From Schmidtea polychroa (taxonomy: Eukaryota): a stretch of 64,000 bases of DNA. The DNA lies in the NCBI GenBank assembly GCA_044892525.1, contig CM097885.1, positions 26,972,001-27,036,000 of the forward strand, given 5' to 3'. Positions 16,555 to 51,434 of this stretch are shown in pieces (positions within the stretch are counted from its first letter, which is position 1; each line of letters opens with the position of its first letter). The notes under the pieces were generated by a model. It was not told where the DNA came from, ran no database searches, and worked only from the letters and a program-made list of their open reading frames with translations. The position numbers and the translations under genes are program-made.

Positions 16555-16567
16555 ACAAAGATGAAGT

Positions 16568-24797: not shown

Positions 24798-24833
24798 ATA
24801 TTGTACACTTTAACATTTGTTTCATTTATTACA

Positions 24834-25189: not shown

Positions 25190-25228
25190 TTTTTTAATAA
25201 ATGTTTCATTGTTTTGAAAATTTAATTA

Positions 25229-26023
25229 GAAATAGTAAATATTTTTTAAATTGCGCGCGAAAAATAATTTTTAAAACAAAGATTCGACATCTCTGATTTT
25301 AATTACATATAAAACAAAAACATTGGTATTAATATCTCTATTTATATTGGCTCTATATATTAATCAAATGAGTTTATTTAAACAAATATTCATAGTTGAC
25401 ACAATAACAGTATACATTTGAACAAAGATTTGAAATCTCCATTCAAAACTACTATAGAAAGCTGAAAGTCCCATCAAAATATGTAAATTTTACGATGCAC
25501 TGTCATAAATAGAATGGTTGAAAATATTTCAAAGTCCGTCGGACATAGCCGAATTTTTGAGAATTATCGATTGGTTTTACTTTTTCTTAATTCCTGGGAG
25601 AACCAAGAAACTTTTCGAGGATTTTATTTCGGAATCTCCTTAGTTGAATCAAGACGCAACTTTTTTGTTAAGGATGTCTCGACTAAATATACTTGGTTCC
25701 CAATGTTCCAAAAAATATTCCTTAAAAACGTGACATATATATTGAAAAGAAATCTTTTTGTTGATTTCATATAAATTAATCTGTGTCGACAAATAACAAA
25801 TCTTTTTTCGTGGACAATGTCTGGGTGAAATCTTTAATGTAAGAAAAGCACACCTGAATAAATTTTACACATTTTGCACATTTTGCACATTTTGCACTTT
25901 GCACTTAAAAATCAATATATGCGCGATAACTCATCGATCAAACGCGCAATAACTTATCAGCAAGGGGGGGGGTATATATGCGCGATAACTCATACTGATT
26001 CATGGGGCTCACATCTACCTACT
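25229..26023 (-). repeat. Right TIR of the Polinton (about 795 bp)
   Basis: Near-perfect reverse complement of the outer and inner parts of the left TIR. Confidence 0.95.
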
Positions 26024-32311: not shown

Positions 32312-32628
32312 TGTTAGAAGCTATAACATTTAATTCTTCGGTCATCAAAATAAATTACTAAGACTATTAAATCCAAAATTATATTTCATTAAATCTGATT
32401 ATATAAACAAATATTCTTGGGACATTTTCTAAATTTTAATTTCAACCAAATATCAACATACCATCGCATTCATACTTGAATTTCAATTTTATTAAAAATT
32501 ATTTTATTTTAAAATTTCAATTATCATTTCAATTTTAATATCTTAAAATAATTTAAGTTTCAATTAAAACTTTACAAATTTTAATCATGAACTAATTTAA
32601 TTTAGTATTTTAATTTTAACTCCTCACA
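32312..32628 (-). repeat. 3' LTR
   Basis: Direct repeat of 37056-37372 with one substitution seen. Confidence 0.97.
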
Positions 32629-35600
32629 TCCCCTTTTTTTAAAATGTTTGATCTTCTCAACATTTCTGACTACCATCTTCCCATTTTGATCTTTAAGTAA
32701 GTAGCTCCGTTCATGTATTTTCTTTATCACTTTGTACGGCCCTTCCCACCTTGCATCGTCTTTATTTCGAATTTCTTGTTTGATCAAGACCACATCTTCT
32801 ATTTCAAAATCTCTCACTGTTTTGCTTATTTTTGGTTTTAGTGTTTTATCCTCTATTCTCTTTTCCATATCTTCTCTATTTATTTCTTTATTCGAGTACC
32901 ATTTCATTCTGTCGATTTTCCTCCCAAATATAATCTCTGCTGGGCTTACTCCCGTTGTTTTTTGAACTGTTGCATTTAACGTATATTCTATTTCTGGCAC
33001 TATATCAGCCCAGTTTTTCCTTCCTCCTTCATTCAATGACGCGTTAATATACTCTCTGATTGTTCTGAATTGTCTTTCAATAATACCATTCGTGTTATGG
33101 TGATATGGGCTTGAGAAAATTAATTCAATGCCAGCTGCCTTTGCTAGTTCTTTTATACTTCTTGCTTCAAAGTTCTTCCCACAATCTACATGAAGTTCTT
33201 TTGGAGCTCCAAACTTTAATATCCATTTATTTAATAACGTCTCACTAATTGTTTTTTCGTCTTGCTTGTTTATGGCCGTTAATGAGATGTATTTACTATA
33301 GTGGTCAATGATTCCGCAAATATATTTCTTTTTGTTGAACGTTTCTTTCAATGGCCCACATATATCCATATATATCTTCTCGAATGGTTCTGTACTCTTT
33401 ATTGTTTGAGTTTCCTCCTTTGTCTTGGTTGTTATCGTTTTCATTTTCTGACATCTTTCGCAGTTCTCAATTACCTTTTTTACTTCCGTTGCTAAATTTT
33501 CCATGTCGCAGTTATTCTGGATATATTTTGTTACTTTCTGTGCACCTGCATGGCACAGCAATACGTGTACTTCTTTTATCATCCTCTGTCTATTATCTGA
33601 CGGTATCCATATTTTACCTTGCTTAGTTAGTACCGTGTTGTTTTCCATTATGAACTTACAATCTTTATTTTCTAACTTATTCTTTATTTCTTGGACCTCC
33701 ATATTGTCATTTTGCCACTTGTTATATCCGCCTTCTGCTGTTACTGTTACTATTCTGGTTTTAATTTTGCCGGTTTTTGCGTCTTCGTGTTCCATCATAC
33801 ACTGTACACATGTTCCGCATGTTTTCCTGGATAGCATATCCGCGTTTGTATGGCTTGTTCCTTTCCTGTATTTCATTTTAATATCCAGGCTGCTTAAATA
33901 GTTGATCCATGTCTGGAATTGAGCAGTTATTGGTTTCTTCGTTGTTACCATAAACGTAATAGCTTTATGGTCCGTTCTCAGTACGAATCTCTTACCATAT
34001 AAGTAATGGTTGAAATGTTTACAAAAATAGTATATTGCCAATAATTCTTTTCTGGTAATGCAGTATCCTTTTTCGTGGCTGCTCATCGCATGTGAACCAT
34101 ATGCAATGACATGTTCATGTCCTTTTTCATCCTTTTGCGAAAGAACTGCTCCAATAGTATCGAAGCTCGCGTCTGTGTCTAATATAAATTCTTTTCTGAA
34201 ATCTGGAAATACCAATACTGGGGCGGTTATCAATGCTTCTTTCATTTCCCTGAAAGCCTTTTCACACATCTCTGTCCATCTTATTTTCTCATTGTTTTTT
34301 CCGCATATGCTTTCTAGTGCTCTTGCCTTCTTTGCATAGTCTTTTATGAACCGTCGATAATAGTTACAGATACCCAGAAAGCTCCTCAGATTCTTCACAC
34401 ATTTTGGTTTTTGAAATGATTGTATTGCTTCTATCTTAGTATTATCTGTTTGTATGCCGTCTTTATTTATTATGTGTCCCAGAAACTTCACTTCTTTTCT
34501 AAATATTTGACATTTTTCGGGGTTCAATCTTAGTCCTGCTGTTGCGATCTTCCCTAGGACTTTTCCAAATATGTTATAATGGTCTTCTTCTGTCTTTGTG
34601 AATATTAGGATGTCGTCTAAATATACCATCACTCCATCTTTCCACAAATCTTTCAATACTTTCGTCATTAATTCTTGAAATGTTCCTGGTGCCGCTGCAA
34701 TACCGAACGGCATCCTGTTAAAACAGAACTGTCCTTCTTTTGTTGAGAATGCTGTTTTCTCTTGAGATTCTTTATCTAACTTCACTTGGTAATAAGCATT
34801 TCCCAAGTCGATTGAGCTAAAATATCTGGATCCGTGTAGGATGTCTAAAATTTCATCTACATTTGGCATTGGAAATGCTTGTCTTTCTGTTATCTTGTTT
34901 AATTGTCTGAAGTCTAGACAAAGCCTGATGTCTTTTTTCTCTTTCTTCCATACACAAACTAAAGGTGTGTTCCACGGTGAATTACACTTCCTAATTATTC
35001 CGTTGTTTTCTAGATTTTTTATTGCTTCCTCAATCTTGTTTTCCAAATTTATTGGCTGACGTCTCGGTTTAATCATTATTGGCTCTCCTTTCGTGATGAT
35101 CTTATGTTTTATCAGATTGGTACACCCAATGTCCCATTTATCTGCCATAAAAACATTCTTGTTTGCCTGAAATATTTCTAGCAGTCTCTTATTTCCGGTA
35201 ACTTTTAAAACGTCGATGGCATGACGTAATCTTTCTTCATCTGTTATAATCCGCCCAAATCTAGCTTCTATTTCGCAAATGAAATCACTACGTTTTCCAT
35301 GTTCTTCTAGTATACATTTCAATTCTATACCAAATAACCTTTGTAGTTCTACTCCTCCAATAATTTCTGGTATTAAATTCTTTACTATAATGAATGTTAC
35401 ATTTCTTTCAATACTGCCCATTTTAACATTGATGTTTATTTTACCCATAGTTTCTAATCTACTGTTGTTTGCACATCTTAGCGATTCCCTTGTTTCTAAT
35501 ATTTCGATATTTTCTAATCGATCAATTACAGATTTAGCCATCACATTAATTCGCGCTCCTGTATCCAATAAACAATCTACTTTCCGCCCTTGGATATCCA

Positions 35601-35946
35601 GTGTTGTACTCGGTCTACCTTGCATTATATTATATGTTATTACTGGACTTTTTTGTTCTTCTACTGACAAAATATTCTGCTCTCTAGTATCTTCTACAAT
35701 TTCATTAATACACATGTCTCCATTTTTCTTGAGGAATTTGTAAATTTTCTCTATAGTTCTTTCCTCGTGTTTTACTAATTCATTTACTTTACACTCCTCT
35801 TTAAATTTTTTCTGAATTTCCTTATCATTCGACTTTTTAATTTCTACACTACTATTATTATTAATATCACGTTCAAAAACACTACAATCTTTATCAATCA
35901 TACAATCATCATACATACTTAAATTACACATACCGTTAGCATTCAT
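32602..35946 (-). CDS. pol: Pol polyprotein (protease, RT, RNase H, integrase)
   Basis: LLDTGA, YLDD, LDTDAS, H-H-C-C zinc finger, YMDICG/HVDCG/IERQF triad, GPY motif; uninterrupted. Confidence 0.97.
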   Translation of the reverse strand: MNANGMCNLSMYDDCMIDKDCSVFERDINNNSSVEIKKSNDKEIQKKFKEECKVNELVKHEERTIEKIYKFLKKNGDMCINEIVEDTREQNILSVEEQKSPVITYNIMQGRPSTTLDIQGRKVDCLLDTGARINVMAKSVIDRLENIEILETRESLRCANNSRLETMGKININVKMGSIERNVTFIIVKNLIPEIIGGVELQRLFGIELKCILEEHGKRSDFICEIEARFGRIITDEERLRHAIDVLKVTGNKRLLEIFQANKNVFMADKWDIGCTNLIKHKIITKGEPIMIKPRRQPINLENKIEEAIKNLENNGIIRKCNSPWNTPLVCVWKKEKKDIRLCLDFRQLNKITERQAFPMPNVDEILDILHGSRYFSSIDLGNAYYQVKLDKESQEKTAFSTKEGQFCFNRMPFGIAAAPGTFQELMTKVLKDLWKDGVMVYLDDILIFTKTEEDHYNIFGKVLGKIATAGLRLNPEKCQIFRKEVKFLGHIINKDGIQTDNTKIEAIQSFQKPKCVKNLRSFLGICNYYRRFIKDYAKKARALESICGKNNEKIRWTEMCEKAFREMKEALITAPVLVFPDFRKEFILDTDASFDTIGAVLSQKDEKGHEHVIAYGSHAMSSHEKGYCITRKELLAIYYFCKHFNHYLYGKRFVLRTDHKAITFMVTTKKPITAQFQTWINYLSSLDIKMKYRKGTSHTNADMLSRKTCGTCVQCMMEHEDAKTGKIKTRIVTVTAEGGYNKWQNDNMEVQEIKNKLENKDCKFIMENNTVLTKQGKIWIPSDNRQRMIKEVHVLLCHAGAQKVTKYIQNNCDMENLATEVKKVIENCERCQKMKTITTKTKEETQTIKSTEPFEKIYMDICGPLKETFNKKKYICGIIDHYSKYISLTAINKQDEKTISETLLNKWILKFGAPKELHVDCGKNFEARSIKELAKAAGIELIFSSPYHHNTNGIIERQFRTIREYINASLNEGGRKNWADIVPEIEYTLNATVQKTTGVSPAEIIFGRKIDRMKWYSNKEINREDMEKRIEDKTLKPKISKTVRDFEIEDVVLIKQEIRNKDDARWEGPYKVIKKIHERSYLLKDQNGKMVVRNVEKIKHFKKRGCEELKLKY

Positions 35947-35969
35947 TCTTTGGTTAAAATCAATATTAC

Positions 35970-37056
35970 TTAGTAAATTGCTCCGATCAATGTCCCGTTT
36001 GACGGAGCGTGCTCGTTTGGGTCATTCTCCCTGTTATACTCGTCTGGCTGGCTTGACTGTTTTGTATTCATCATCTCATCATCAGACTCGATAGCTGCAA
36101 TATCTTTTCTGTTATATTGTTGGTTTCCCCATTGTCTTTGATGTACGTTCCTTGATTGATACATATCGTCCCTTTGTTGATAGGTATTTCTTTGAATTCT
36201 TCCTCCTGACATCTTCCTTTGGTCTCGATCTCTTCCTTGATTTCGTCTTTCCATATTTGTGTAGCACTCTCTTTCTTTGTGTCCTCGTGCATTGCATCTA
36301 TGACATTTGATTGTTGGGCATTCTCTTCGTATGTGACCTTCAACACCACATGCATAACATTGAAATCTTCTTTTTATATTACATTCTCTGCTACTGTGTC
36401 CCGGTTTTTGACACGTCCAGCATTCTATCACTTTAACTCTTGTCTCTGGTTTCCATTCGTTGATTTCTCTCTTCGTGGCTCCAACTTGTACTACATCTCT
36501 ATAAGTTCTTCCCCCAGTTGTAGGTCGTATTGATCTCACCGTGTTTACTTGTTCAATAACCTTGTTAACTTTTTCTATCTTCTTTATAGTTTCTTTAATT
36601 TGTTCCGCCGTTTTGAGATCTTTCATTTCGATTTCTTTCCTGACTTCTTTATCTCTTACACAATGTGTCAATAAACATTTCTGAATTTCTTCCTCATTCC
36701 AAGTGTGTGAGGCCAATTTTTTAGTCATTTTTGATATTTTCTCTATAAATATTTCCGCTGATTCGTTACCTTGCTCGTAGTTCAAGGCTTCTCTTAAGTC
36801 ATCAATCAATGACGTTGGTCGATGAAAAGCTGCTCTTAATTTCTGTTCAACGGTTTTACCTTCTGTGGTTTCATATTCTTCAATCAAAGTCCTGTCCAGA
36901 AGTGTAATAACTAGTACCATTTGGGTCTTCACTGGTGTCTTCGCTTTTTTCAAAGAACCTCTGACATTCTTTGATAAATAATTCGAGGTCATCTCCTCTG
37001 TGGAATTTTTCTGGAAGTAATCTTCCAATAAGCAGATCCGTTGGAATGGTCGCCAT
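35970..37056 (-). CDS. gag: Gag with three CCHC zinc knuckles; frameshift in an A-run at about 36945-36950
   Basis: CWTCQKPGHSSREC, CYACGVEGHIRREC, CHRCNARGHKEREC; the N-terminus MATIPTD...ECQRFFE is in a different frame. Confidence 0.9.
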
Positions 37057-37372
37057 GTTAGAAGCTATAACATTTAATTCTTCGGTCATCAAAATAAATT
37101 ACTAAGACTATTAAATCCAAAATTATATTTCATTAAATCTGATTATATAAACAAATATTCTTGGGACATTTTCTAAATTTTAATTTCAACCAAATATCAA
37201 CATACCATCGCATTCATACTTGAATTTTAATTTTATTAAAAATTATTTTATTTTAAAATTTCAATTATCATTTCAATTTTAATATCTTAAAATAATTTAA
37301 GTTTCAATTAAAACTTTACAAATTTTAATCATGAACTAATTTAATTTAGTATTTTAATTTTAACTCCTCACA
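37056..37372 (-). repeat. 5' LTR
   Basis: Adjacent to the PBS; direct repeat of 32312-32628. Confidence 0.97.
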
Positions 37373-38085
37373 ATAATAATGTCGAGTTGTTACAAATATG
37401 TTAGAGTTGGGCCAACAGAGATTGGCGGAAAATGACATAATATGATGAATAAATAAAAATAGCAATTTTACAATTGCTAAAAATACAATATGATGGGCTG
37501 GAACCCGAGATAACCTAAATTTTCTATAAATTTGAACTTTCCATAAAGTAATTAAATGAAACCCTGTATTAACATAAATTGAGGTAGTCAGACAAATGTA
37601 AGGAAAAATAAAGAATGAGAGAAAGAAAAATAATAGAATAAAACAAAAATCACCAAAATAAAATAAATAATAAATAATTCGCAAACAGACAAACAACATA
37701 TAACCATAACTAATGTTGGGCTGAGAACTAAGACAAAAAATTAAAAGCATGAAATAATGTAAATAAGCAAAAAAGACAAAAACAATAAGAAACGACAAAA
37801 AGTACCACCAAAATCAAATAACAAATTAAAATAAATATATAATAAGAATATTAATTGAATAAAATATAAAAAAAACAAAAAAAAACAGAATTAAAACAAT
37901 AAATTTAAAGAAGCAAAAACATTAAATAAGGATAATAATAGGAAAGCGACACCAAAAATATGCAATTAATATAAAAATTTATAGAGAAAATTAATACAAT
38001 TTTAAGAGAAAACTTAAAAGACGAGTAAAATTACAAAAAATACATAAATTTTAATTAAATTAATTAATTTTGCGATACCTCGATT

Positions 38086-38223
38086 CTGATTGGTCCGCAA
38101 ATTCCACAATAGACTATATAAACTAGACATTGAAACAAAAATTTTAATGTCAAAATACCAAACATTTAGGTAAGATGAGTTACAATATTTTTATAATTTA
38201 ATATCAAAATACCAACCATTTAG
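38086..38223 (+). promoter_or_regulatory. CCAAT/TATA promoter with short first exon and 54-nt intron (38170-38223)
   Basis: CTGATTGG, TATAAA at about 38117, AG|GTAAG and TTTAG|. Confidence 0.65.
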
Positions 38224-38801
38224 GTCAACTACAAAACATTTAGCACTACGACAATTCACTTTACTCAAGGACTAAAATTACACGTTCCAGCTCACAAAAC
38301 TCGAAAACCAGACGCAGTTATTCATTATAAAGCCTTTAGAGAAAGATTTTGGTAAAATTTAATTTTTATCTATATTTCATTTTTGTATGTAACGTATTCT
38401 AACTACTAAATTAATGAAGGAATGGTTCGTGTTCCTTTTCCTTTTTTCATTTTTAATATCTGTAATACTTTTAATATTTTTTTTAAAAAGTTTCACATTT
38501 TATATTTAGTATTTTAATAAAGCTTTTCATTGAAATTAACTATGTTTTGATTTTTTTCGTAATATCGTACTTAAAATAATTATTAATAAATAAGAATGAT
38601 TTTTAATATGAACATTTGGCAGATAATTTATTCGCACACTCATCAGGCCATACTAGAGGTGAACCGAACAACAGTCGTCTCGTTACTATCAAAAATTTAA
38701 CCCGATAAAGACGTGAGAGTAAACGCGAACCAACAGTAACTAATTCACTCAACCTTATCTGTAATTAAGAAAAATAGCTAAAAAACAACACGACTTAGTC
38801 C

Positions 38802-38919
38802 TGATTGGACGAAAATTAGTATATAAGACGACCGTTAAGTTAGTTAAGTAATTACTCTAACTTCACTACAGGTAAAGTTTTTCAATTATTAACAATTAAT
38901 TACTCTAACTTTACTACAG
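38802..38919 (+). promoter_or_regulatory. CCAAT/TATA promoter with short first exon and 48-nt intron (38872-38919)
   Basis: CTGATTGG, TATATAAG, CAG|GTAAAG and CTAAC...TACAG|. Confidence 0.65.
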
Positions 38920-39953
38920 GACTAACTTCAGTACAGCAACTTTAACTACTAATAATCATCAGGAACTCATAGAACGACTAATTTTAGCAAACATTTTACA
39001 GATTCATTTAGCAACGATTTAGAATAGAAACTACTTTATCGCAAGTTATTACGGGACAATATTAGATTCAGGAACTTTAGCTATTGAAACCATTTCAAAG
39101 ATCCGTATATTCAGTTCAGTTTAACAGTTCGAGCAAAGCCGTTAAAGAACCAAGTAAAGATTTTGATTATTGATGATTTTATCTTTATTATTTTAATTTT
39201 TACGAGTGAATTCTAATAGTAAATTATCATGAATGTATAAATTTTCATTAAACAAAATATTATATTTATTAGCACACTTGTCTTTTCTATTCACGGAACT
39301 GGCGACGGTGCCGTTTGAAATCTCTGGATATGATGCCAATGAACCGAGGACACGAGAATTATAATTCGAATAGTTTCGAAGACATGTAGTTGGATCCTAT
39401 AGATAAAATGATTGGAAGGAAGATTCTATTATGTCAATGAGGAATCATCAGAAGAATTCAATATGAGCATTGTTGGAAAATGAACTGCGTTAGTAAAGTC
39501 CCATGTCGTGCATCATACTCAGAAACCAAAGGACATGGTCGCCAGGTAAATTTGATATTGGTGGGTTACAGGTCGTCTAATTTCTACCTACTCGCGCTGT
39601 TTCCAGCGTAACCCAGAATACAATGAAACCGTTGACCGCTTGACACCCGTTGAGCAATCAACGTTGGTACTGTGTCAAGGGTTAGGGTACTAGCAAAAGG
39701 TGAGCATGCTTAACATACTATAATTGTCTAGCACCCTCTGGGGTTCACGGACTGCCGATAGAACGCTTATGACCGATTTCTCTAGGTCCCCGTTATGACA
39801 ATTGACGTTTTCGAATAATCGGAATACACGAACGCTAACATAACAACAATGATTTTTTATTTGAGATCACCCCTTTATATGACGAGTTCATGAGGCTCTG
39901 GTAGACTCCTTCGGGGTAGTCGATTGAATTGGTGTTTGTACCAGGCTGGCCTG

Positions 39954-40276
39954 TCATCCGGGTAGCATCCTAGGGTACCCGTCGATGTCCTCCAGGTCGC
40001 CGGCTAGGGTTGCATCCTCGAGCCGTTGTAGTTGATCCACAGCTGCCTTTCCATCTTCGAAGGCTTCGACCAGAGCTAGGGAGGTGGCGTTGACGAAGGG
40101 ATCACCGGGACCACATTCTGGTAGGTCCAGTCGTGAATCTTGTACCAGATCCACCTTGACCTTAGTCGGGTGACTTCTCCATCTCGGTCCGGATTGGTGG
40201 AGTCTTCTGCCTCCTCGTGGCTCGGGTCGGTTGGTGAGGGACCGGCCTGTGCATTTCTTTGTCTAGTGTTGGGCAT
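39954..40276 (-). pseudogene. Small acidic/disordered ORF (MPNTRQRNAQAGPS...) with a frameshift near 40160
   Basis: GC-rich coding-like island; acceptor TTTTATCACAG directly before the ATG; two overlapping track ORFs. Confidence 0.45.
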
Positions 40277-40832
40277 GCCTGTGATAAAATAACATTAAGG
40301 TACTTCCTAACGAGCCTTTTGATCACCAATTCTGGTTTTATAAAGCAAATCTTAAATTCCGACTCGACCTTAGGATTAAACTTAAAGACACGGTCTTCGT
40401 CTTTTAACTTGAGAAGTATATATTGGCCAAACCAAGCTGAGGGCATAATTTTATATCTTGGCTCCAAACTTTAACTTAATGAAACTTAACTACAGCGAAA
40501 TCTTTATGCTCTGTTGGGCTGAGTCGGAAAATCAATTTGGGAAATTAGGAAAATAAAATAAGCAAGAGGCTAAAGAAAAACAAAATAAAATAAAACAAAT
40601 TACGAATAAAATATAAGAAAAACAATAATTAGGAAATAAGAATTAAAACAAAAATAAAAATAGAAAATTAAAATAGGACAATGGAAAAACGGATAAAATA
40701 ACGTAAAATTCAATAAATAATAAGGAAATTAAAGAAATAAATAGAAAATATAATAAAAATAAAGAAAATAGGAAGAAATAACCAAAAACAAGAAAAATAA
40801 ATTAAAGCAACAAAATTAAGCGGTACTCAATT

Positions 40833-40960
40833 CTGATTGGTCCGCACACACAGAAAATTAATATATAAACACGCACAAAAATCATAAAATTACTGTTAAT
40901 CTAAACATTCTACAGGTAAGAGTACTTTTAAATAATACTGTTAATCTAAACATTCTACAG
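40833..40960 (+). promoter_or_regulatory. CCAAT/TATA promoter with ~25-nt first exon and 45-nt intron (40916-40960)
   Basis: CTGATTGGTCCGCA (shared with 38086), TATAAA at about 40864, CAG|GTAAGA and TCTACAG|. Confidence 0.7.
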
Positions 40961-42826
40961 ACCTACAATAACCGACAAGGATAATCAACAATCAAAATCA
41001 TTTTCTAGGAGCATTCAGAGATCGAAATCGAGACAACTAATTACTGAGAAAGTACCGAATCTATTTCCGACTCAGCCTACAACACTACAAGTGATACGTA
41101 AGCAGATTTTTGTTTGAAAGTATTAGTAATCATGAGATGTTCGTAAAAGTAAAATTAAATGAATTATGATTTTCTTTTCGGTTGATCCCTATTAATATTT
41201 TCATATAATTTTAATGATTAAATAAATGGTTTTAATGATAAATGCGTTGTTTTAGATATATTTATGAATTAGTCGGAAAGTCTATAATTTTATGATTGTG
41301 CATTTTATGAGAAACGTGGAGTTGAGACGTTTCATGTCATGGTGTGAGGGGCCTTCGGGAGCTCAGCCGGTGGACATGAAACGTTTCAATCACGCAGCTG
41401 ACTTGGGCCGAAAAGTGGGGGCTTCCTCACGGGTCCGTCGCTGAAGGTTCCTAACTTAGTTGAAACAGTGGACTATAGATATATGAGAGATTTCAATTAG
41501 AAAATTTAGCTACGTTCATGATTCACAGTGATTTGAGGCGGCCACCACCAATTTTTCGTATCTGGAAAACTGTTATCCACCATAAGTCTGATTCGTAGCA
41601 CTAGTTCAGGCGACCGTAATCTATAAATCCGAGTTCGTCAACCCTCATCACATCTTGGTATTCAACCATCTACTTGATTCTTCCAAAAAATCATCTTAAT
41701 TCGAGAATTTTACTTCAATACCTGATAACTATCTGACGGGGTATCATAAACAACTTATACACGAAAAAGCAAAACACAAGACTTCCAATATAACCACACT
41801 TTATTTTTGAAAACGCTGGTTAACCAAAATATAGTACTTACAAAATGTTTCCGAAAATTAGCCGTCGGAGTAAGATTCATGGTCATCTTTTAGATAAGTA
41901 ATCCGATTCCCTGTCGTAGAATATATCCCACATTAGGGAAAGCCTCGTAATCATAAATCCACATTCTGCAGGTGAAAGCGAGTAAACGGAGGGGAACTGA
42001 CAAACACATAATTTTTCCGATATTGTCACCCGGTAAAATCTCATCCAACTACCCATGTGTGAATGCGAAATGCAATTGATATCGACAGTAGATACAGATA
42101 AGCATCCATGAGAATAGCACAGGACTACCAGCTTATCATGATCAGCGAGAGCATTTGTTGTAATATGTGTGCGACATGAATTATTAGATAGACAGCAGCC
42201 GGTGAGTAGGATCGATAACTATCACCGTGCAGTACACCGAACCGACCAATAAATCACTGACTTTTATCTGGTGCGAAAGTGTCTCGTGGCGCTGATAATG
42301 AGTAACAAATTAATCCGCTAGTCGACTTGGGGTCAACTCTCCACTGCAAACTATTTTTGTAATGTTCACGTTTTTAGACCACCATAATAATAAATAAACT
42401 GCCCTGCGTATATTTAAATCCTCGGCATGAAAGATATTAAATGGGAGGAGGAAATGCCTGTTGGGGGAATAATTCGTCTCGAATTATGTTAACTATAATA
42501 GTCTTGGGTCGAGGTCTAAATAATGAAGTGAGGGTTTAGGGAGGAATTCGGTGTGTGTTGAATTTAGTAATAGCATAATTGTCACCATGATCCCGGATTT
42601 TGCATTTGTCAATACAATCGTGCCTAACTATGTAAATAAAATTATGTAATAAATCTAGCAGTAACAAATTAATTACCTGAGATTGTAAATTTCTTACTAG
42701 TCAGTGTGGTCTCCTTGTTTTGTTGTAAGTATCAAATATGAATAAATAATCTGTAGGGTGGAGTGATGTCTTCATAAATGCCGTATATTTGTATAAAAAT
42801 TTTCTTCACTTTTCTATCTAACTGTC

Positions 42827-43576
42827 ATGCTACCGAATAATCGACCCGCATTACGTCCTTGTTTCTCCTGCGCCGATAAAAACTCTATTATCAAGGATCT
42901 GCAGGCCCAGATCGGTCGATACAAGAAGAAGATCGACGAACTGGAATGCACATGGTTCAGCCCAGTGCAAATGAAGGAGGTTCGAAAGAAATTATATCGC
43001 AGTGAGCATTGTCGGGATGCCCTGATTTCTGAGAGCCGTTCCCAACGGAGCTTGATAAAGGAGCAATCTGAAGCGCTCCACAAAGTATATTTACAAGCAG
43101 CAACTACGAGGCAATTAGTCAGTATACCCATTCACGAAGCGGACAATGTTTTCCCGATACATCACGACACCTCGTTTAAGTCGTCACCTCCGGCCAAGAA
43201 GTCTTGTCGGGAATGTGTTGAAGCCGACCTCTCCCCCAGGCATCCAGATATCGTTTTCCCCAAGATCGGTAAGGTGCCAATCGCCGGTACCTCTACCTCG
43301 GCGGTACCTCCGATTAGTCAGGTGGCACCAAAACCCAAGCGACGGCAATTGTCGAGAGCCGATCGCAAGAGAAAACAGCGAGAGCGCGCGGCCGCCAAGC
43401 ACAACGAACAGCCAGCGGAGAATCCTATTAGTGTTCAGCACCCTCCGACGACAATTGATCTGACCATCGGGGTCCCAGGGCGAATTATCTCCGCCGCTGG
43501 AGTGACCTGGGAGGAAAATGCCTCCGAATTCTTTGATTTGGAAGAGTTGTTGGCCGACACTGAGTGGGAAAAATGA
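42827..43576 (+). CDS. Element-encoded 249-aa protein: CxxC, coiled coil, basic NLS-like segment, acidic tail
   Basis: Intact GC-rich ORF with two clear paralogues in the window (PCFSCxDKN...FSPxQMKE...EHCRD...SEALHKVY). Confidence 0.85.
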   Translation: MLPNNRPALRPCFSCADKNSIIKDLQAQIGRYKKKIDELECTWFSPVQMKEVRKKLYRSEHCRDALISESRSQRSLIKEQSEALHKVYLQAATTRQLVSIPIHEADNVFPIHHDTSFKSSPPAKKSCRECVEADLSPRHPDIVFPKIGKVPIAGTSTSAVPPISQVAPKPKRRQLSRADRKRKQRERAAAKHNEQPAENPISVQHPPTTIDLTIGVPGRIISAAGVTWEENASEFFDLEELLADTEWEK

Positions 43577-45524
43577 GAATCCTCTGTCCGTTCAACCCGC
43601 TTCGAAAGACGAATATCAATGTTTCTTTTCTTATTTTCTCATCATTCATGTATAACTGTGCGGTGTAAATTATCAACGTTTTATCCCATCGTGAGGAAAT
43701 AAATCATGTTTGTTGCTAATGTTCTTATTATATTTTTTGTGTAAAGTTTATGACATAGATTTTAGTTATTCTAATCAATATCAGTGAAAATCTTTATAGG
43801 ATCTATAAGTGTCTTCTAAGGCCGGGTTGTTGGTTTGAACGAACGGTCTGATGATATGAGTAGACGTAAGTCCTTCTATCGGCAGTCAAGGGAAGGAAGT
43901 CGAGGCCTCAGTAAGGAGTAGTCCAAAGGTAGGGGCTCACCTGCTTACTGGCGTCTCGCCGACATAGTGCATTACCAACGTGAAGTAATTCACGGGTACT
44001 ATGCTGGAATATAAGTTGTGCGGGGTACCGCTCGGAGTTACAAAGGGAATGGATAAAACAGACAAAGTAGACCATCATCTCCTAGGCAAAAAGTGAAATT
44101 GTAGAGGTGAGTCCGAGTAGTGCCCCAGCAGCTCATTCACTTTAAAATTCAGATTAAAGAAAAATATTTTCGACCCTAATCTAATTTTACAAATTAAGGA
44201 GGAAAAATCCAACTCGTCATATACTTTAAACCTTAATTGAAAGTCAGATTTCTTATTTTTCGAATTTCTTAATTTATGATATTGTTTTAGTTCGCTACTT
44301 AATTAAAAAAATATTTTATGTCAACATGTTACTATTTAAAATTCTCTTTTTTAAATATTAATGGCTTTCCACCGAAACCAATTGCAAGGTGTCGAACGGT
44401 AATGCTTGGAGCTTTGCACAAGCTACTTACCCTCTTCTACCAACAATTGTAGTAGGTGGAACTTTCGTCTTACCACATAAAAAGGTAAATTTTATTTGAT
44501 CTGCTACAAATTGAATTTTAGGTATTTGTTTTGGCTAGTGAATTTTACTAGTGGATTGATTAGTTGCGGAAATAATGCTGGGAATTCACGGGACGTCTCG
44601 ATTTGATAGTAGAATTGGTTGGTGGATACCTAACGTAATGGAGATGGATTTGTTCAGTTCATTCGTCATTTACATCATTCGACTTTCCTTTTTCCATTTC
44701 AATCGGTAAGTTTAATTTCAAGTCAAGAATTTTTAAATGCGATCGTACATGTCTAATTATAGGATATGGTATAGTTGCACAGGGAGCTAATGGGGAGATA
44801 AATGATGATCACAACTTTAGATTTAGACTCTTGGATATATCAGCAATTCTGTGTTGACTGAGGCTGTGATAATAATAAAAATTCCTGGTGTTATTATTTA
44901 TGGTGAATTATTGCCGATATGTGACGGTTGTATGTTAATTTCTGATTAAAAATTTTGCTCTGAGATGAAAATATAGGTTGACTGAAAATTATTTCAGGGT
45001 GATAATAATAGCTGTAATAATAATGATCACATCGATGGTCTACATCACGGATGATAATGAAATCGCGATAACCTCGACACTAACGGTGCTATTACTACCG
45101 GTAACAATAGTCGATATAACGGCAGGGGGAGTAATGGCAATTTCATAATTTATTATACATATTATTGAACTTGAGGTCTATACCATTGTCTCCTCTCATT
45201 ATATAACCAGGGAGGGGTGGCTTGGGTAATTTTAGATTATGTATTTATCTATTTGATGTCTGCATATACATACTCACACACATACACCCACGTATGCACA
45301 CAGATATATAGGTATATATGTACATCATTACATTACTTTGGGGTGGGGGTTGTTACTAAAAATAGATTAGGGGGGTTTGGTAATTTTATTGGGGAATAGG
45401 ACTGTTGAAGTTAAATCTAGAGATAGGGGATTTCCAACATTAACACTTTGTTTATATTATTTTTATAAAATAAGATTATTTTAATAATATAATACCATTA
45501 GTGGGAGCGACTGAGTTAAAAGAA

Positions 45525-45775
45525 AAATTGTGAAAATAATAATGACAATCATACTAATATTAATGATGATACCGCCATTAAGGGAAACATAGTAAAAATA
45601 CTAATGACAATAATAATGATATTAATGATGATAATATTACTAATGTAAAATTTGAAAAAATAATAATGACAATAATAATGATATTAATGATGATAATATT
45701 ATTAAGGTAAAATTTGTAAAAGTAATAATGACAATAATAATGATATTAATGGTGATATTATTATCAAAAAAAAAT
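45525..45775. repeat. Minisatellite, ~63-bp unit, about 4 degenerate copies
   Basis: Recurring TAATGACAATAATAATGATATTAATGATGATAATATT. Confidence 0.8.
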
Positions 45776-48179
45776 TTATATTTTTATAAGACTATTACCT
45801 ATCCACGGCTTGAGGGGGGTTAATTATGAAAAATTGTTCAAATTAATTTCTAGACGAAGTATAAGTGAATTTATCTAAAAATAAAATAAATTAGAGCCGT
45901 TGGGTAACCATTATTGAGTATGGTCCAAGGGGGTCATTTATGGAAAATTTCTAAATTTATATCATAAAGATAATCTAAGCAAAATATGCATATAACATAA
46001 TCAAACATAGATTTGGAGAAGTACCGTTGGACGATAAAAATTTAAAGTTTTTATATAACTTGTCTTTAGTACATATAAAAATAAACCTAAAAAAGAACTC
46101 TGACGAAATAACTTAGGAATCATTTTATAATTAATCAAATAGACACAAAATAAGGATTACATTTTAACAAGTGCAAAAATCTAGATGTTAATAAAGATCG
46201 TGTACGTTTGGGTATTAGTCACATGACATAGACCTTGAGGGGTGAATATAAAAATCGTATAAGGTATTTCTGGCGAAATTAAGCTTTCGAATATAATTTT
46301 GGCTAGTTGTTATGATCCTAAATGATGAAAAGATATTTTATTCCGTGATATTTCTAGGTGTAGTAGACTTTTAGATAATAATTAGGTTTTCTAAACATTT
46401 AATTTTGTACTACTATATGATGATAGGTGGTTCGTTAGAAATTATTGTAGGGTCGTTACACTGTTAGCCTTCTAATATTAATTTTTATAACATCAAATAA
46501 GGAAAAGGTAGGTTACTTCGAAGTGGATTTTAAGTTTTCGAACCAAGATATAGTTTTCTGAAATAGTATAGTAGAAATATAATTTATTCGAAGAGGCATT
46601 GGTATCATTTTATTTAATTTCTGTCTTTATATTTTTGTTGTCTTTCCTCTTAATTAATATTGTTTATTTGATGTATTTTTTATATTTAACTGAACTTATT
46701 GCTATTTGCGTGCTATGTACCCACGCACGAGTTTTTGGGTCTAGAAATCAGTTCTAGCCCAACAATATTGATAATTTAGAAAACGAAATGAAATTATTGA
46801 CACAGTTTTATTTATGTATTATTTCACATTTATGATTTATTAGCATTGATAATTACGGTCGATCGGTCTATCGTGGCGGTCTCGATACGGTCGGTAGCAA
46901 TACCGGTGGTCCCCAGGTGAGCCTTGGTAAGTGGAAAGACCACTGAGGAGATATATAGAAATTTCGAAATATTAAAGGAAAATAAGTGCCTTCATCGAGT
47001 GGCAGACATCATAGATTAGTAGATCGCTGATTTTCGAGACTAATATCACAAGTTTCTGATATGAATTTCAACCCTTTTGATAGTTAGAGAGTGACAAGGA
47101 TTGTGGAGACAATCGAATCGTCATAAGCGTTATCAGTATAATCCGATAGGGAATAGATAATCCAATTGTCGACTTAAAAACTACAGTAGTTATTTGTGAA
47201 CATGAGATAACTAGATTCTTGCGAAACGAATAATTACTCCAGGTGGCCAGATCATGTCATTAGTTATCGCTAGATAGTAAATCCTTGACTTTCACCGTAA
47301 TTGCCAGAACATTTTTAACGTAGACATTCCAATGTAAAACGAACGTCGATAGAATTTTCTTCATTTCACCATTGTTAATTTAATAAACCGAAACCTCCTT
47401 TCATTAGATCGATGAACGCTGGTAAGGATAATCTATACATCCTGCCGACGAGATTTCATTTTCCATATAATTCATTCCAAAAATTGTCTTAGTAAAATAA
47501 ACATTGATGATAGATTAAGTAAACTAATTCGGATAAGATCGAGAAATGATTTACATAAATTGATAAACATTATTTCCATCTCTTAACGTCAATTACATAA
47601 ATCTGAAAGTCATAGCATGGGGAGTACCAGTCATCCGGGTTTTCGATAAATAAATCAGATTAGATCAAGATTAGTGCGAGAATAAACAATTTATCAGATA
47701 ATCATTCCTCACATAGAATTTACACGATAATTATCTGTGAATCAACCACGTTGTCAAACAAATTAACCACATAAACAAATCCATGTTAGTAAGAATTTTA
47801 ATAATAAGGTAAATTAAATCTTCCAAATTTCCACTTATAAACACAAATCATTTATGTTAATAAGAATATAAATTCCTTCTAAACGATTGTATTTTCTCAC
47901 GCAGTTCATGCAGTGTACGGCCGATAATACATAAAATCCCGAAAACGTTTTTTCGAATAATTAATACTTCGTCAAATGAAATGAATCATTCAGGTTGATC
48001 AAACCTCACCCTTAGTAACATCAATATTCAGGGAAAATGTCGTTCGTAAAATGTATGGAATACGGGGTATCGAGATAGTATATGGAGTGAAAGGGAAGGG
48101 AATTGTTATGAAATGCTTACTAATCTGCTACAGCTGAACTTTTCTCCTGTCGCGTTAAACTCTTATTTATTTTTCAGTT

Positions 48180-48941
48180 ATGTGCGAGCCGAATCTACAG
48201 CCGAAAGGGCCAAGACCTTGTTTTTCCTGTGCAGACAAAAATGCCGATATAAAGAAACTGCACGAGTACATAGGGGCTTTGAAGAAACGCATTGAAACAT
48301 ACGAATGCACATGGTTCTCCCCGCCACAAATGAAGGAGAAAACTAAAATCTTGAGACTGGAGCACTGTAGAGACAGTCTCCTCGAAGAAAGTAGATGTCA
48401 GAGATTGACCATCAAGGCCCAGTCGGAAGCCTTGCATAAAGTATATTCAGAATAGGAAATCCAGAAGAGAATACGGGAATACCCTATTAAGGACGGAACC
48501 AACGTGTTCCCTCTTCATCACCGAGCTGATGAACTACAATTTCCCGTAACCAATTTCACAGGACATGGAAGTCAATTTCCACTCATAGCCGATTCAATCT
48601 TGTCTGGATCATTAAAGGAATCTAAGGCACCAGTAACGAACGACAAGGAACCAATTCCCGCTCAGATTTCTAATCTCATCACCGAACCCACTACTTCGTC
48701 GCCGAAGAAGCGCAAACGCCCTTCTCGGGCAGAGAAGAACCAGAAACGTCGAGATGCGATGGCCGCTTTGGAGGCATCCTTATTTGCGGCTCAGGCGTCA
48801 AAGGACGCAATCCCAAAGAAAATTCCGCTCGTCTCGGAAGAAACTTATCGCATCATCCCTTCCGAAACTCTACACTCTCAGGAATATGCTCGGCTGCAGG
48901 TGGACATAGACGATCTGTTAGCCGATGGAGAGATGCTTTAG
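48180..48941 (+). pseudogene. Paralogue of the 42827 ORF with an in-frame TAG at 48453-48455
   Basis: The two track ORFs are in the same frame; shared motifs and acidic tail DIDDLLADGEML. Confidence 0.8.
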
Positions 48942-49203
48942 TGAACACTGATATGATATCCCAGAAAATGCTGTTCGAACCCGAATGAACCTTACTCTCG
49001 GACATTCTGTATAAAGTGATTTGGGCTCTTCATTCTATTGTATTTGGTTAAATCGAGTCTCTCGGGTGCGAAGGTATAGGGAATTCTTTTTTCTTTTCTC
49101 GATCTATTATCGACGATCATAAAGGTCGAACAGATATTTTTTCAATTTCATTACCCATGATTCCGTTACTTAACTTTGCTATTACAACTTGATTACTTTA
49201 GAA

Positions 49204-49971
49204 ATGTCGAAAACCCCAACAGCTACGACTCTTCTTCTGCCATGCTTCTCATGCACCGACAAAAACGCAATTATCAAAACATTGCAAACCCAAATCAGAC
49301 TACTGAAGAAGAAGTCAGATCATCTCGAAGGGACATATTTCACTCCCGCTCAAATGAAAGAAGTGCGAATGAAGTTGTCGCGGGCCGAACACTGCCGCGA
49401 TAGTCTGATCGAGGAGAGCCGCTCGTTGCGACTGTTAGTCAAGGAGTAGTCTGAGGCCCTGCACAAGGTCTACGTGCAGGCAACGATTACGAAAAAGATC
49501 ACCTCAATACCCATCTCGGAGGAAGATAATGTTTTCCCGGGATATCATCCATCAGTCCCGTCGGAAAATCGAGCCTGCAATAGTTGCATGGACGAGCTCC
49601 TATCGCCCACAATATCTGACGCTCGTGCCGCTGGTGTCAACAGAGTGGCCTCAAGGCCTATCGTTATCTTGAATCCAGTCCCTCCTCCGGTGGTAAAAGC
49701 AACCCCTAAGCGTCGACAACCAACACGGGCCGAACGAACAAAAAGACGGAAGCTACTCCAAGCCGAGCGAGAGGCGAAGTTGGTCTCCGAAGCCATGCAG
49801 ATGTCTCGATCTGTGCCGGCTGAAACAGTAGCTCTATCACAGCCTCCGTTTCGGGTAGTCCCATCATCCAGCACTACCTGGGAAGAAGATGCGAGAGATT
49901 TCTTCGATCTCGACATGATTTTCGCCAAAGCTTCCTCGTCGACCTTGAAACATTATGTTCAAGAATTATGA
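49204..49971 (+). pseudogene. Paralogue of the 42827 ORF with an in-frame TAG at 49447-49449
   Basis: Same-frame continuation; TWEEDARDFFDLD matches TWEENASEFFDLE. Confidence 0.82.
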
Positions 49972-50559
49972 TGTTGTTATTGAATGAGCAGACCAGCTAT
50001 CATCAAATCCTTTTGTTTAATTCTCTGCTATTAATAATTCATGTAGATACACCCTCAGTATGCTGTGGAAATTGGTGTTATAATGGTATTTCTTTAAATA
50101 AATGTTGGATCACGTAGTAATGATAGTTCTGATATCTGTTTCCGAAGTTTTCTTTTGTTGTATTGTAAAAAATGGTGAAACCATGGTGATGAATGAGAAA
50201 TTGATAGTGAAGTCACATAATTTTGATCGATACCTCGAATAATGGAAAAGACATAAGCCCTTCTACCGGCAGTCGGGAAATGGAGAAGTCGAGGTAGGGT
50301 GAAGGAGTAGTCCTAAGGCAGGGGCTCACCTGCTTCACCTTATCTCGCCATCATGGCACAGTACCAACATGGTGTGAATCATGGGTGTCATGATGAGAAA
50401 GTAGTCGTGTAGGTTTTTGATTAGCGGTCAACATAATATGGTGTAAGGTTATTTTTTTGGACTATAATCCCCTGGTAACACGTAAACTCTTGTTGAACTA
50501 GGCGACTCTTTTGGAGTATCTTTTGGAGTCAGATAGTGTGAATAATGCTTGATCGCTAT

Positions 50560-50750
50560 CTTGCTCGTGTTTTAATTTTATTTTTAATTCGAATGTTTTA
50601 TTATTGTGATTTGTACTTTCTATTAAATTTTGTTTACTTAATGTTTATTGTTTTATTTTTATTCTACTTGATGCTGGGTATGCGTGTTATGTACCAACAT
50701 ACTTCGTCACAATTCTAACTTTGGGTCTAAAATTCAGTTTTAGCCCAACA
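50560..50750 (-). mobile_element. 5' end fragment of another TGTTGGGCT-family element
   Basis: Reverse complement reads TGTTGGGCTAAAACTGAATTTTAGACCCAAAG...AATTGTGAC, homologous to 58160. Confidence 0.7.
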
Positions 50751-51434
50751 CATAGAACGACTAAACAGGTAAATTTGACATTAAAACTATACAGAACATA
50801 TTACACTAAGAGTTTGTTCCTAAATTCGAGTCGGCTGATTGGGGCAAACAGATAATCTTTATGCTACTCAAAATCTATCAGAACCAACATTCGACGAAAT
50901 GAGTTGACTTTTGACGAAGGTGGGCGGGTATATTCAAATAATAGGAATGCTATCAAAAAAAAGTCATCGATAATTTTGCTGTAATCAACAAATCGGAATA
51001 ATAGGGAGATCCCTGCGCAAAATTCCCAAATTATATCTAAAGAAGCTCTAATTTAAAGTTAGATATACGTTTTCTTTAATGAAATTAACCAATTATTTTC
51101 CTTTTTATATCATACCCAATAGATTATAATGCAAATAATTCACCTTTTAGTAATTAGAAAAGTAAAAATCTCTAATAGGAAAATTTCATGTTACTGGGAC
51201 TAGACTAGGGAAAATAACAATCCAGAATTGCCCTATACTTAATGTCGATTATGAAAGGTTATTAACCATAATAATTAATCAAATTAAGATTTATACATTA
51301 TGAAAATGACAAAAACGTTGTTTAAAATAACTTAAATTTAACGATTTCAGTTATTTCAAATTTAGTAAATAAAAGCGTCATTTTATCGTTTTATCGTCTT
51401 TTTAGCTTAATCGTATTTACTAAATTTGCAAAAA

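What the first reader, a model, noticed from the sequence alone, without database searches (positions are those of the whole stretch)
38150..38244. Second exon-1 = intron-end promoter
TCAAAATACCAAACATTTAG|GTAAG ... TCAAAATACCAACCATTTAG|GT (one mismatch) bounds a 54-nt intron about 30 bp after a CCAAT/TATA promoter, with a decayed third copy just downstream. The sequence is unrelated to the 40891 repeat, so the architecture rather than the sequence is conserved.
Basis: partly seen in the sequence, partly recalled or inferred. Interest (0 to 1): 0.72.

Follow-up and report, generated by a model that had tools for sequence, protein, structure and literature searches.

The report
Retrotransposon LTR intron copying its exon
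The end repeats of jumping genes in a flatworm-like genome carry a tiny intron whose last part is a continually refreshed copy of the short first exon, a layout that would let the element be spliced and still pass its intron on through copying via RNA, although splicing itself has not been observed.

Summary
The repeat is real and far beyond chance: 3 of 143 AG|GT donors in the window score 20-25, the other 140 at most 7, and 0 of 14,215 shuffled donors reach 20. It is not a host promoter but the U3/R part of a 1,022-bp solo LTR (37714-38735). Two related LTR promoters (38801, not named in the finding, and 40833) share the layout. In all three the repeat runs from about the predicted start site (TATA +28/29) exactly to the donor. 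Two clues from sequencing-run contigs favour rebuilding during reverse transcription. Sister copies differ in exon 1 at three letters that all match the decayed third copy, while this LTR's exon 1 and intron end share the other letter. Sister copies of the 40891 unit have a G just before the intron-end copy, as cap read-through would leave. Best reading: strong-stop cDNA from the spliced 5' end lands on the unspliced 3' LTR RNA and overwrites the intron end. Splicing is not shown and the parent element is unidentified. The scan noted this layout before in fungal copia and gypsy LTRs. Six targeted paper searches found no description.

The parts
37714..38735 (+). Solo LTR 'P1' (1,022 bp), TGTTGGG...CCAACA; holds the finding
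   Evidence: TG..CA ends; 4-bp target duplication with one mismatch (CTAA / GTAA); right end less certain than for P3; no internal region next to it
37714..38145 (+). A-rich U3 region (inferred)
   Evidence: sequence; position between the LTR start and the predicted start site
38086..38093 (+). Reverse CCAAT box (CTGATTGG)
   Evidence: shared by all three units
38115..38122 (+). TATA box
38146..38169 (+). Predicted exon 1 (24 nt; start site inferred at TATA +31), repeat copy 1, ends in TAG
   Evidence: start site inferred from spacing, not measured
38170..38223 (+). Intron-shaped segment, 54 nt, GTAAG...TAG
   Evidence: size inside the 45-85 bp short-intron peak of planarians (PMC13594981, passages); splicing not shown
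38200..38223 (+). Repeat copy 2 = intron 3' end (22 of 24 identical to exon 1)
38224..38243 (+). Repeat copy 3, 5'-truncated relic at the start of exon 2; carries the letters that sister LTRs have in exon 1
38352..38358 (+). Second donor-like site, upstream of the poly(A)-like signal
   Evidence: function inferred
38516..38521 (+). AATAAA followed by a T/GT-rich stretch (candidate end of R)
37491..37713 (+). Probable 5' part of the older LTR 'P2' into which P1 inserted; its 3' end was not established
   Evidence: TGATGGGCT start resembling the other LTR starts; nesting inferred
38801..38936 (+). Unit P2: CCAAT 38801, TATA 38820, exon 1 38850-38871, 48-nt intron-shaped segment 38872-38919 ending in a copy of exon 1 (21 of 22), relic third copy 38920-38936
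38937..39153 (+). Rest of P2 exon 2, enriched in short AG-ending relics resembling the exon-1 ends of the three units
   Evidence: 1 of 300 shuffles reaches the score with the third copy left out; 15 YAG in 38920-39153, 0 of 2,000 shuffles. Not seen for P1 (210 of 300), weak for P3 (26 of 300)
40512..44130 (+). Solo LTR 'P3' (3,619 bp) with perfect 4-bp target duplication (GCTC)
40833..40960 (+). Unit P3: CCAAT 40833, TATA 40862, exon 1 40892-40915, 45-nt intron-shaped segment 40916-40960 ending in an exact copy (24 of 24); no significant third copy
40936..40936 (+). Position just 5' of the intron-end copy in P3: T in the window, G in one sister contig in each of three runs (candidate cap read-through mark)
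   Evidence: table 3; position checked
39559..46764 (-). Solo LTR of a related type on the minus strand (target duplication ATAT) that interrupts P2 and is interrupted by P3; no exon-copy intron found in it
   Evidence: loose ends near 39585 fit this end

Best explanation
The feature is the promoter and start of R of a solo LTR from a multi-copy LTR-retrotransposon family in a planarian-like genome. Transcription starts about 30 nt after the TATA box, giving a 22-24-nt exon 1, a 45-54-nt intron and exon 2 (inferred). The cap-proximal intron in the 5' LTR copy of the RNA is spliced, while the same intron near the RNA's 3' end is at least sometimes left in (inferred, not shown). Reverse transcriptase copies the spliced 5' end (exon 1 + exon 2) into minus-strand strong-stop DNA. 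At the first strand transfer this DNA pairs through exon 2 with the unspliced 3' LTR RNA, so its exon-1 part lands on the intron's last ~24 nt, and synthesis continues through the intron's 5' part, the true exon 1 and U3. Every new LTR then reads U3 - exon 1 - donor/spacer - fresh copy of exon 1 - exon 2. The intron is rebuilt, its 3' splice site is overwritten by exon 1 in each cycle, and exon 1 must itself end in YAG. Rare out-of-register events leave partial copies inside exon 2, which are no longer refreshed and decay (third copy). The likely use of keeping the intron is better transcription or export of a long RNA, and a common spliced leader for the LTR-borne ORFs. A second donor upstream of the poly(A) signal may suppress 5'-LTR polyadenylation as in foamy viruses. 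These functions are inference only. Rough odds: solo-LTR promoter 0.9, real intron 0.8, overwrite at strand transfer 0.7.
For: Shown: (1) LTR anatomy with TG..CA ends and 4-bp target duplications, nested. (2) In 3 of 3 units the repeat's 5' edge is 28, 29 and 29 nt after the TATA start, its 3' edge is exactly AG|GT, and the spacer is not repeated. So copy 2 plus what follows equals the predicted spliced 5' end. (3) Identity within an LTR (22/24, 21/22, 24/24) far exceeds that between LTRs (14/26, 18/27, 17/25), although the promoters are homologous (P1-P3 and P2-P3 0 of 300 shuffles; P1-P2 16 of 300). (4) All 3 exon-1 differences listed for sister contigs (38151, 38155, 38159) equal the letter in copy 3, while the window's exon 1 and copy 2 share the other letter (chance about 2e-4, computed after the fact). 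By its end coordinates, X1 record 1 (38083-38264, 182 letters on 182 positions) carries two of them and keeps the intron. (5) T>G at 40936, the -1 position of copy 2, in one contig each of X1 (1,407 of 3,006 depth), X5 (335 of 335) and X7 (18 of 18), with no row listed for the -1 position of exon 1. Changes to G at -1 by cap read-through are reported for MLV and HIV-1 (PMC11998490, discussion passage). (6) A loose-end consensus of 15 X1 contigs puts TCAGT with its A at TATA +31; TCAGT as an initiator motif is recalled. (7) Sizes 45/48/54 fall in the planarian short-intron peak of 45-85 bp (PMC13594981). (8) 3 of 4 ORFs of the P2, P3 and minus-strand LTRs have an AG exactly 2 nt before the ATG. 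(9) 0 of 7 unrelated loci with the same CCAAT-TATA-donor pattern have the repeat (best scores 3-6).
Against: Splicing and the start site were not observed. The G mark is seen for 1 of 3 units only: the window's own P1, P2 and P3 copies all have T at that position, and the three contigs may be one subfamily. The state of copy 2 in the sister contigs could not be read (40 of 518 rows shown), so co-change of copies 1 and 2 rests on the window's one LTR against its sisters. The model needs an unspliced 3' LTR RNA, but adding 60-200 nt of U3 did not consistently hide the donor in predicted folds (P2 unchanged, P1 same or more open, P3 lower in 3 of 6 settings). Copies 1 and 2 differ at 2, 1 and 0 positions, which must be put down to mutation after insertion. 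Two other LTR-like promoters in the window (TATA at 7853 and 58806) have donor-like sites downstream without a clear exon copy (gapped score 10 at 7961), so the layout is not needed by all LTRs here. No internal region links these LTRs to an autonomous element.
Confidence: 0.66

Rival explanations
1. Real intron inside R, born once by DNA-level duplication of a splice-site-containing stretch and kept alike by gene conversion or repeated slippage. The intron survives because strand transfer happens early (inside exon 2) or because packaged RNA is unspliced, not because exon 1 overwrites it.
For: Short AT-rich tandem repeats are common in the window. A third partial copy and further relics show that local duplications happen. 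Premature strand transfer is known for HIV-1 (reference title seen in PMC11998490).
Against: Does not explain why the repeat starts at TATA +28/29 and stops exactly at the donor in 3 of 3 diverged LTRs, why the spacer is never duplicated, the G at 40936, or why copy 3, only 20 nt away, escaped homogenisation.
Confidence: 0.14
2. No splicing. The repeats are by-products of reverse-transcriptase jumps: the enzyme skips from copy 2 to copy 1 (direct-repeat deletion) while copying the 5' end, then lands on the 3' R. This also rebuilds the unit and homogenises the copies; the GTAAG works only as a U1-binding site.
For: It predicts the same start-site edge, cap G and concerted change. Direct-repeat deletion by retroviral RT is established knowledge (recalled). 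U1 binding without splicing controls poly(A) choice in foamy virus (PMC3694450, abstract, section list and discussion).
Against: Gives no reason for the repeat to end in YAG exactly at a GT donor in all three units, or for 45-54-nt spacing matching the host's short introns. It also needs a repeat to begin with.
Confidence: 0.12
3. The units are not LTRs but promoters of a host or virus-like non-coding RNA family, or of a non-LTR element such as a Penelope-like terminal repeat.
For: No gag/pol or primer-binding site lies next to them. The 249-aa ORF inside P3 has no Pfam family or homologue. Penelope-like repeats also hold a start site and a 5'-UTR intron (PMC8557442, passages).
Against: TG..CA ends with 4-bp target duplications in 4 units (3 perfect, 1 with a mismatch); a shared motif about 175-260 nt before the 3' end in the 3 units with a mapped end; nesting; very high summed depth in DNA runs; no Rfam family, hammerheads included, in 37400-51000.
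Confidence: 0.05
4. Chance match in AT-rich DNA.
For: The region is about 27% G+C.
Against: 0 of 14,215 shuffled donors reach the observed scores; 0 of 7 pattern-matched control loci.
Confidence: 0.01

Closest known systems
Foamy virus LTR (Schrom et al. 2013, PMC3694450; abstract and discussion read)
   Same: A splice donor inside R, upstream of the poly(A) signal and present in both LTRs; the 5' and 3' copies of the same sequence must behave differently.
   Different: No complete mini-intron or copy of exon 1 in the LTR is described in the parts read. The U3-dependent fold that hides the 3' donor there was not reproduced here by prediction.
HTLV-1 LTR intron (bioRxiv 10.1101/2023.01.28.526022; passages)
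   Same: Donor and acceptor both inside a retroviral LTR, used in transcripts.
   Different: The passages seen mention no repeat of the upstream exon at the acceptor and no route for rebuilding the intron.
Penelope-like elements (PMC8557442; passages)
   Same: Retroelements whose terminal repeat holds the start site and a short 5'-UTR intron (75 bp in Penelope) that survives retrotransposition; the paper calls the significance unknown.
   Different: Different class (pLTR; GIY-YIG endonuclease). Here the ends are TG..CA with 4-bp duplications and the intron end copies exon 1.
Burro / GYPSM1 giant Ty3/gypsy elements of planarians (PMC6431247; passages)
   Same: Planarian-like host; their quoted sizes (internal up to 25 kb, total over 30 kb) imply LTRs of a few kb, like the 2.9-3.6-kb solo LTRs here; accessory ORFs.
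   Different: No link by sequence could be made; no LTR intron is mentioned in the passages seen. Grohme et al. 2018 could not be read.
Cap read-through at minus-strand transfer in MLV and HIV-1 (PMC11998490; discussion passage)
   Same: A G appears at -1 where the strong-stop DNA lands.
   Different: There it lands at the true start site; here the G sits before the intron-end copy, 45 nt downstream.
Fungal copia and gypsy LTR exon-copy mini-introns
   Same: Same layout and same proposed rebuilding mechanism.
   Different: Those shown are described as fungal or fungus-like, or name no host; this case is in an animal. The relic third copy and cap-G clues do not appear in the short notes seen.

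Membership tests
LTR retrotransposon solo LTR | TG...CA termini | tested here: met
   P1 37714-38735, P3 40512-44130, 7136-10008, minus-strand 39559-46764
LTR retrotransposon solo LTR | Short target-site duplication | tested here: met
   4 bp: perfect in 3 of 4 units, one mismatch in P1
LTR retrotransposon solo LTR | U3-R-U5 order: promoter, start site, poly(A) signal | tested here: inconclusive
   Motifs are in the right order in 3 of 3 units, but no RNA ends were measured
LTR retrotransposon solo LTR | Occurs elsewhere as paired repeats flanking gag-pol with primer-binding site and polypurine tract | not testable with these tools
   No genome held; run contigs are returned as tables only
LTR retrotransposon solo LTR | Dispersed, multi-copy | tested here: met
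   4,553 contigs of X1 laid on 4,001 bases at 82% likeness or more; summed depth up to about 9e5 against 171-474 for contigs without differences (depth is not a copy number)
Burro/GYPSM1 (Ty3/gypsy) | Giant internal region with a ~4,900-aa polyprotein | not testable with these tools
   No internal region adjoins these LTRs in the window; family assignment left open
U2-type spliceosomal intron | GT donor and YAG acceptor | tested here: met
   GTAAG/GTAAA/GTAAG and TAG/CAG/CAG
U2-type spliceosomal intron | Size typical of the host's introns | tested here: met
   45-54 nt vs 45-85 bp peak in S. mediterranea (PMC13594981); host identity itself inferred
U2-type spliceosomal intron | Removed from RNA via a lariat | not testable with these tools
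   Only contigs could be laid
Foamy-virus-type donor/poly(A) switch | Donor in R upstream of the poly(A) signal | tested here: inconclusive
   Donor-like sites 164, 93 and 56-119 nt upstream of AATAAA/ATTAAA; R end not measured
Foamy-virus-type donor/poly(A) switch | U3-dependent RNA fold masks the donor in the 3' LTR | tested here: not met
   Predicted accessibility of the first donor not consistently changed by U3 (prediction only, second donor not folded)
Penelope-like element terminal repeat | Hammerhead ribozyme in the repeat (most, not all, PLEs) and nearby RT/GIY-YIG ORF | tested here: not met
   No Rfam match in 37400-51000; no Pfam family in the 4 LTR-borne frames scanned

The most novel reading that the evidence does not exclude
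LTR retrotransposons of animals, and by the scan's unchecked notes of fungi, use a general self-renewing intron: the spliced first exon is written back by reverse transcriptase as the intron's own 3' splice site in every cycle. One 22-24-nt sequence therefore serves as initiator, first exon, strand-transfer landing pad and splice acceptor. Misregistered cycles add exon relics to R, a route by which retroelements keep introns and grow their LTRs.
Probability: 0.55. Interest if true: 0.82.

Novelty: new variant of a known kind. Interest (0 to 1): 0.7.

Why it matters
Elements that copy through RNA are expected to lose introns, and intron retention is treated as an oddity of Penelope-like elements whose significance is unknown (PMC8557442). 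This layout gives a concrete, testable way for an ordinary LTR element to be spliced and still inherit its intron. It predicts countable marks in genomes: repeat edge at the start site, G at -1 of the second copy, and joint change of two copies beside a frozen third. If it holds in both fungi and animals, it is a widespread, overlooked feature of LTR biology. It also means that spliced reads from such LTRs are nearly invisible to standard mapping.

Tried and rejected
No whole genome was held, so the genome-wide scan could not be run. Sequencing runs: no RNA holder listed; X7 is only guessed to be RNA and is not used as evidence of expression. Joints: none of the 15 of 44 rows shown skips any of the three intron-shaped segments; this shows neither presence nor absence of intron-less copies. 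Pattern scans for more copies: viral contigs 0 hits and 4 hits with a looser pattern; metagenome contigs 3 hits. None of these 7 has the repeat, so they serve only as controls. A search of viral contigs with the window's Ty3/gypsy Pol gave no relative. The 249-aa ORF at 42827 found no homologue among 871 candidates of 136-436 aa, no Pfam family and only atlas hits below 0.9, so it did not identify the parent element. Look-ups of earlier findings by sequence gave nothing relevant. U3-dependent masking of the donor was not supported. A recursive-splicing site (AG|GT after copy 2) was rejected because P2 and P3 lack the GT. Accumulated relics in exon 2 beyond the third copy are supported for P2 only. 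No tRNA gene or Rfam family explains the repeats. The S. mediterranea splice-site table (Additional file 2 of PMC3022928) could not be read; the 7 readable supplements held none of 6 short motifs, and file 6 none of 5 peptide words. The unread table might hold spliced LTR introns. Literature: searches (4 papers listed; 0; 1; 0; 2; 1) showed no title or abstract start describing an LTR intron that copies its upstream exon. Only the HTLV-1 preprint among these was opened, the library lacks most subscription papers, and Grohme et al. 2018 was not available.

Full report
1. Observation. The described letters are at the stated place. A 54-nt GT..AG segment (38170-38223) follows CTGATTGG (38086) and TATATAAA (38115). 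The stretch before its donor is repeated at its 3' end; the best-scoring repeat is 27 nt, 25 identical. A shorter third copy follows at 38224-38243. Of 143 AG|GT(A/G) donors on both strands, three score 20-25 (38170, 38872, 40916) and 140 score at most 7. None of 14,215 donors in 100 local shuffles reaches 20. Allowing gaps leaves the same three on top, the next scoring 10. The finding names two of the three units; the one at 38801-38936 is added here. Seven loci from public collections with the same promoter-and-donor pattern have no repeat (0 of 7).

2. Setting. The window is eukaryotic, AT-rich and full of mobile DNA. Earlier notes of the scan describe the same genome as flatworm-like and holding a Burro-type element (unchecked). 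The three promoters lie in units that begin TG(T/A)TGGG; those with mapped ends close in CA and have 4-bp target duplications: 37714-38735 (P1, one mismatch), 40512-44130 (P3), 39559-46764 on the minus strand, and 7136-10008. They are nested. P1 appears to sit in the U3 of an older LTR that starts at 37491 and owns promoter P2, whose 3' end I could not fix. P3 sits inside the minus-strand unit. No gag-pol adjoins them, so they are read as solo LTRs, and the superfamily is open. Public DNA runs hold thousands of related contigs; summed depth is far higher over the CCAAT/TATA part than over the exon-intron part (X1: 474,238 at 40800-40933 vs 7,043 at 40934-41067, not a copy number). So the promoter is shared widely while the start of R varies. 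P1 and P3 promoters are homologous (77 of 119 columns, 0 of 300 shuffles), which corrects 'unrelated'.

3. Anatomy of the repeat. In 3 of 3 units the repeat starts 28-29 nt after the first T of the TATA box and ends exactly at AG|GT; the spacer is not repeated, and the letters after the two copies differ. With the usual TATA-to-start spacing of about 30 nt (established knowledge) the repeat is the whole first exon, 22-24 nt. A loose-end consensus of 15 sister contigs has TCAGT with its A at TATA +31, which fits an initiator (motif recalled). The segment sizes 54, 48 and 45 nt lie in the 45-85 bp short-intron peak reported for S. mediterranea (PMC13594981, passages). Downstream, each unit has a second donor-like site and then an AATAAA/ATTAAA with a T-rich tail. 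Three of four ORFs in these LTRs have an AG two letters before the ATG; the fourth (42827) has none there, and the coordinate tried for the 7136 LTR frame was off its ATG and is not counted. This suggests a spliced leader shared by LTR-borne ORFs (inference).

4. Evidence on how the repeat is kept. (a) Exon 1 and the intron end are 22/24, 21/22 and 24/24 identical within an LTR, against 14/26, 18/27 and 17/25 between LTRs. (b) Sister contigs differ from the window's P1 exon 1 at 38151, 38155 and 38159. At all three the sister letter equals the third copy at the ungapped offset, while the window's exon 1 and copy 2 share the other letter (about 2e-4 by chance, computed after the fact). The X7 contig carries all three, and by its end coordinates runs from upstream of the CCAAT box; its 3' part might be loose, so alone it could be an intron-less form. 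X1 record 1 spans 38083-38264 without net length change and, by its end coordinate, carries two of them, so an intron-bearing sister has them. The simplest reading is that copies 1 and 2 change together and copy 3 is a frozen earlier state. The sisters' copy 2 was not visible (40 of 518 rows shown). (c) At 40936, the position just before copy 2 of P3, one contig in each of three runs (three studies, one species label, possibly one subfamily) reads G, and no row is listed for the matching position before exon 1. Reverse transcriptases of AMV, MLV and HIV-1 are reported to copy the cap and leave G at -1 (PMC11998490, discussion passage). The window's own three copies have T there, so this mark is 1 of 3. 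(d) P2's exon 2 holds further AG-ending relics (1 of 300 shuffles); P1's does not (210 of 300) and P3's is weak (26 of 300). A related exon-1-like sequence follows the P3 promoter in one contig of a second species label (X9).

5. Mechanism. In LTR elements R and U5 of the new DNA come from the RNA's 5' end and U3 from its 3' end (established knowledge). If the cap-proximal intron is spliced, strong-stop DNA is the complement of exon 1 + exon 2. Pairing through exon 2 with an unspliced 3' LTR RNA puts its exon-1 part on the intron's last ~24 nt, and extension copies the spacer, donor, exon 1 and U3. The product is the observed layout, with the intron end overwritten each cycle and a cap-derived G possible in front of it. 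Shown: layout, edges, non-chance, LTR context, within-LTR likeness, the two contig clues. Inferred: start site, splicing, an unspliced 3' copy, the transfer itself, and any benefit. Against: no RNA evidence; predicted folds give no consistent U3-dependent masking of the donor, so why the 3' copy would escape splicing is unexplained (cap-proximal introns being favoured is recalled knowledge); other LTR types in the window lack a clear exon copy. I put this reading at 0.66, DNA-level duplication with conversion at 0.14, RT repeat-skipping without splicing at 0.12, and a non-LTR origin at 0.05. I wrote the hypothesis down before seeing the scan's fungal notes; those notes are not independent evidence.

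6. Known systems. It works like the foamy-virus LTR in having a donor in R that must act differently at the two ends (PMC3694450, abstract and discussion), like HTLV-1 in having an intron inside the LTR (bioRxiv 10.1101/2023.01.28.526022, passages), and like Penelope-like elements in keeping a 5'-UTR intron (PMC8557442, passages). None of the parts read describes an intron end that copies exon 1. It meets the sequence tests for a solo LTR; membership of Burro (PMC6431247, passages) could not be tested. Six targeted searches listed 4, 0, 1, 0, 2 and 1 papers, judged by listing except the HTLV-1 preprint; the library misses most subscription journals. PMC11410931, PMC8532177, PMC3022928 and PMC13238120 were seen as passages and did not mention LTR introns in them.

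7. Verdict. A real, non-random feature of retrotransposon LTRs, a new variant of a known kind. The scan has seen the layout in fungal elements; this is an animal case with two sequence clues that point at reverse transcription as the cause. Interest 0.70; 0.82 if RNA data confirm it.

Noticed in passing
window 10134-26023: Polinton/Maverick with long inverted ends (AGTAG starts), A32-type ATPase, integrase, split DNA polymerase B, a Bcl-2-like ORF (23208-23642, minus) and a TBP-like ORF (24402-24797); the TBP gene was noted many times earlier in this genome.
   Followed up: partly
window 32312-37372: Young Ty3/gypsy element on the minus strand with open gag and pol frames, 317-bp LTRs 99.7% identical and a 5-bp target duplication; its LTRs have no exon-copy intron.
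   Followed up: partly
window 42827-43576, 48180-48941, 49204-49971: Three paralogous ORFs of unknown function inside the long 3' parts of these LTRs; the second and third are interrupted by in-frame stops. No Pfam family in the frames scanned, no homologue for the first.
   Followed up: partly
window 39900-40276 (minus): Another short, interrupted ORF inside the minus-strand LTR, preceded by an acceptor-like AG two letters before its ATG.
   Followed up: partly
window 7136-10008 and from 58160: LTRs of a second type with a TATATATACC promoter and no CTGATTGG box before it. The 7136 LTR has a 15-nt repeat with a 28-nt period near the predicted start and a 79-nt intron-shaped segment at 7961 whose end weakly resembles the sequence before the donor (gapped score 10, fourth of 143); possibly a decayed case.
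   Followed up: partly
window 9832, 39763 (minus), 43874, 50261: A shared motif (TTCTAYCGGYARTC); it lies about 175-260 nt before the 3' end in the three LTRs with a mapped end. Candidate packaging or integration signal; the 39594-39861 bins have the highest depth of X1.
   Followed up: no
window 50559-50750: Inverted, apparently truncated 5' end of a second-type LTR next to the 3' part of the P2 LTR; leaves the P2 right end unresolved.
   Followed up: no
window 53402-55027: Short element with inverted ends, an 8-bp target duplication and a BED zinc-finger ORF, hAT-like by recalled features.
   Followed up: no
window 60088-64000: Array of TGACTCAT-containing repeats (60088-60845), a RING-finger ORF (61193-61741, minus) and a second polymerase-B-like frame (62539-63999, 67% DNA identity to the first), probably the end of another Polinton-like element.
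   Followed up: no
window 45516-45780: 62-nt tandem repeat (about four copies) inside the minus-strand LTR.
   Followed up: no
L006 and L007: Two similar viral-contig loci share a CCAAT-TATA-donor-like pattern without any repeat.
   Followed up: no
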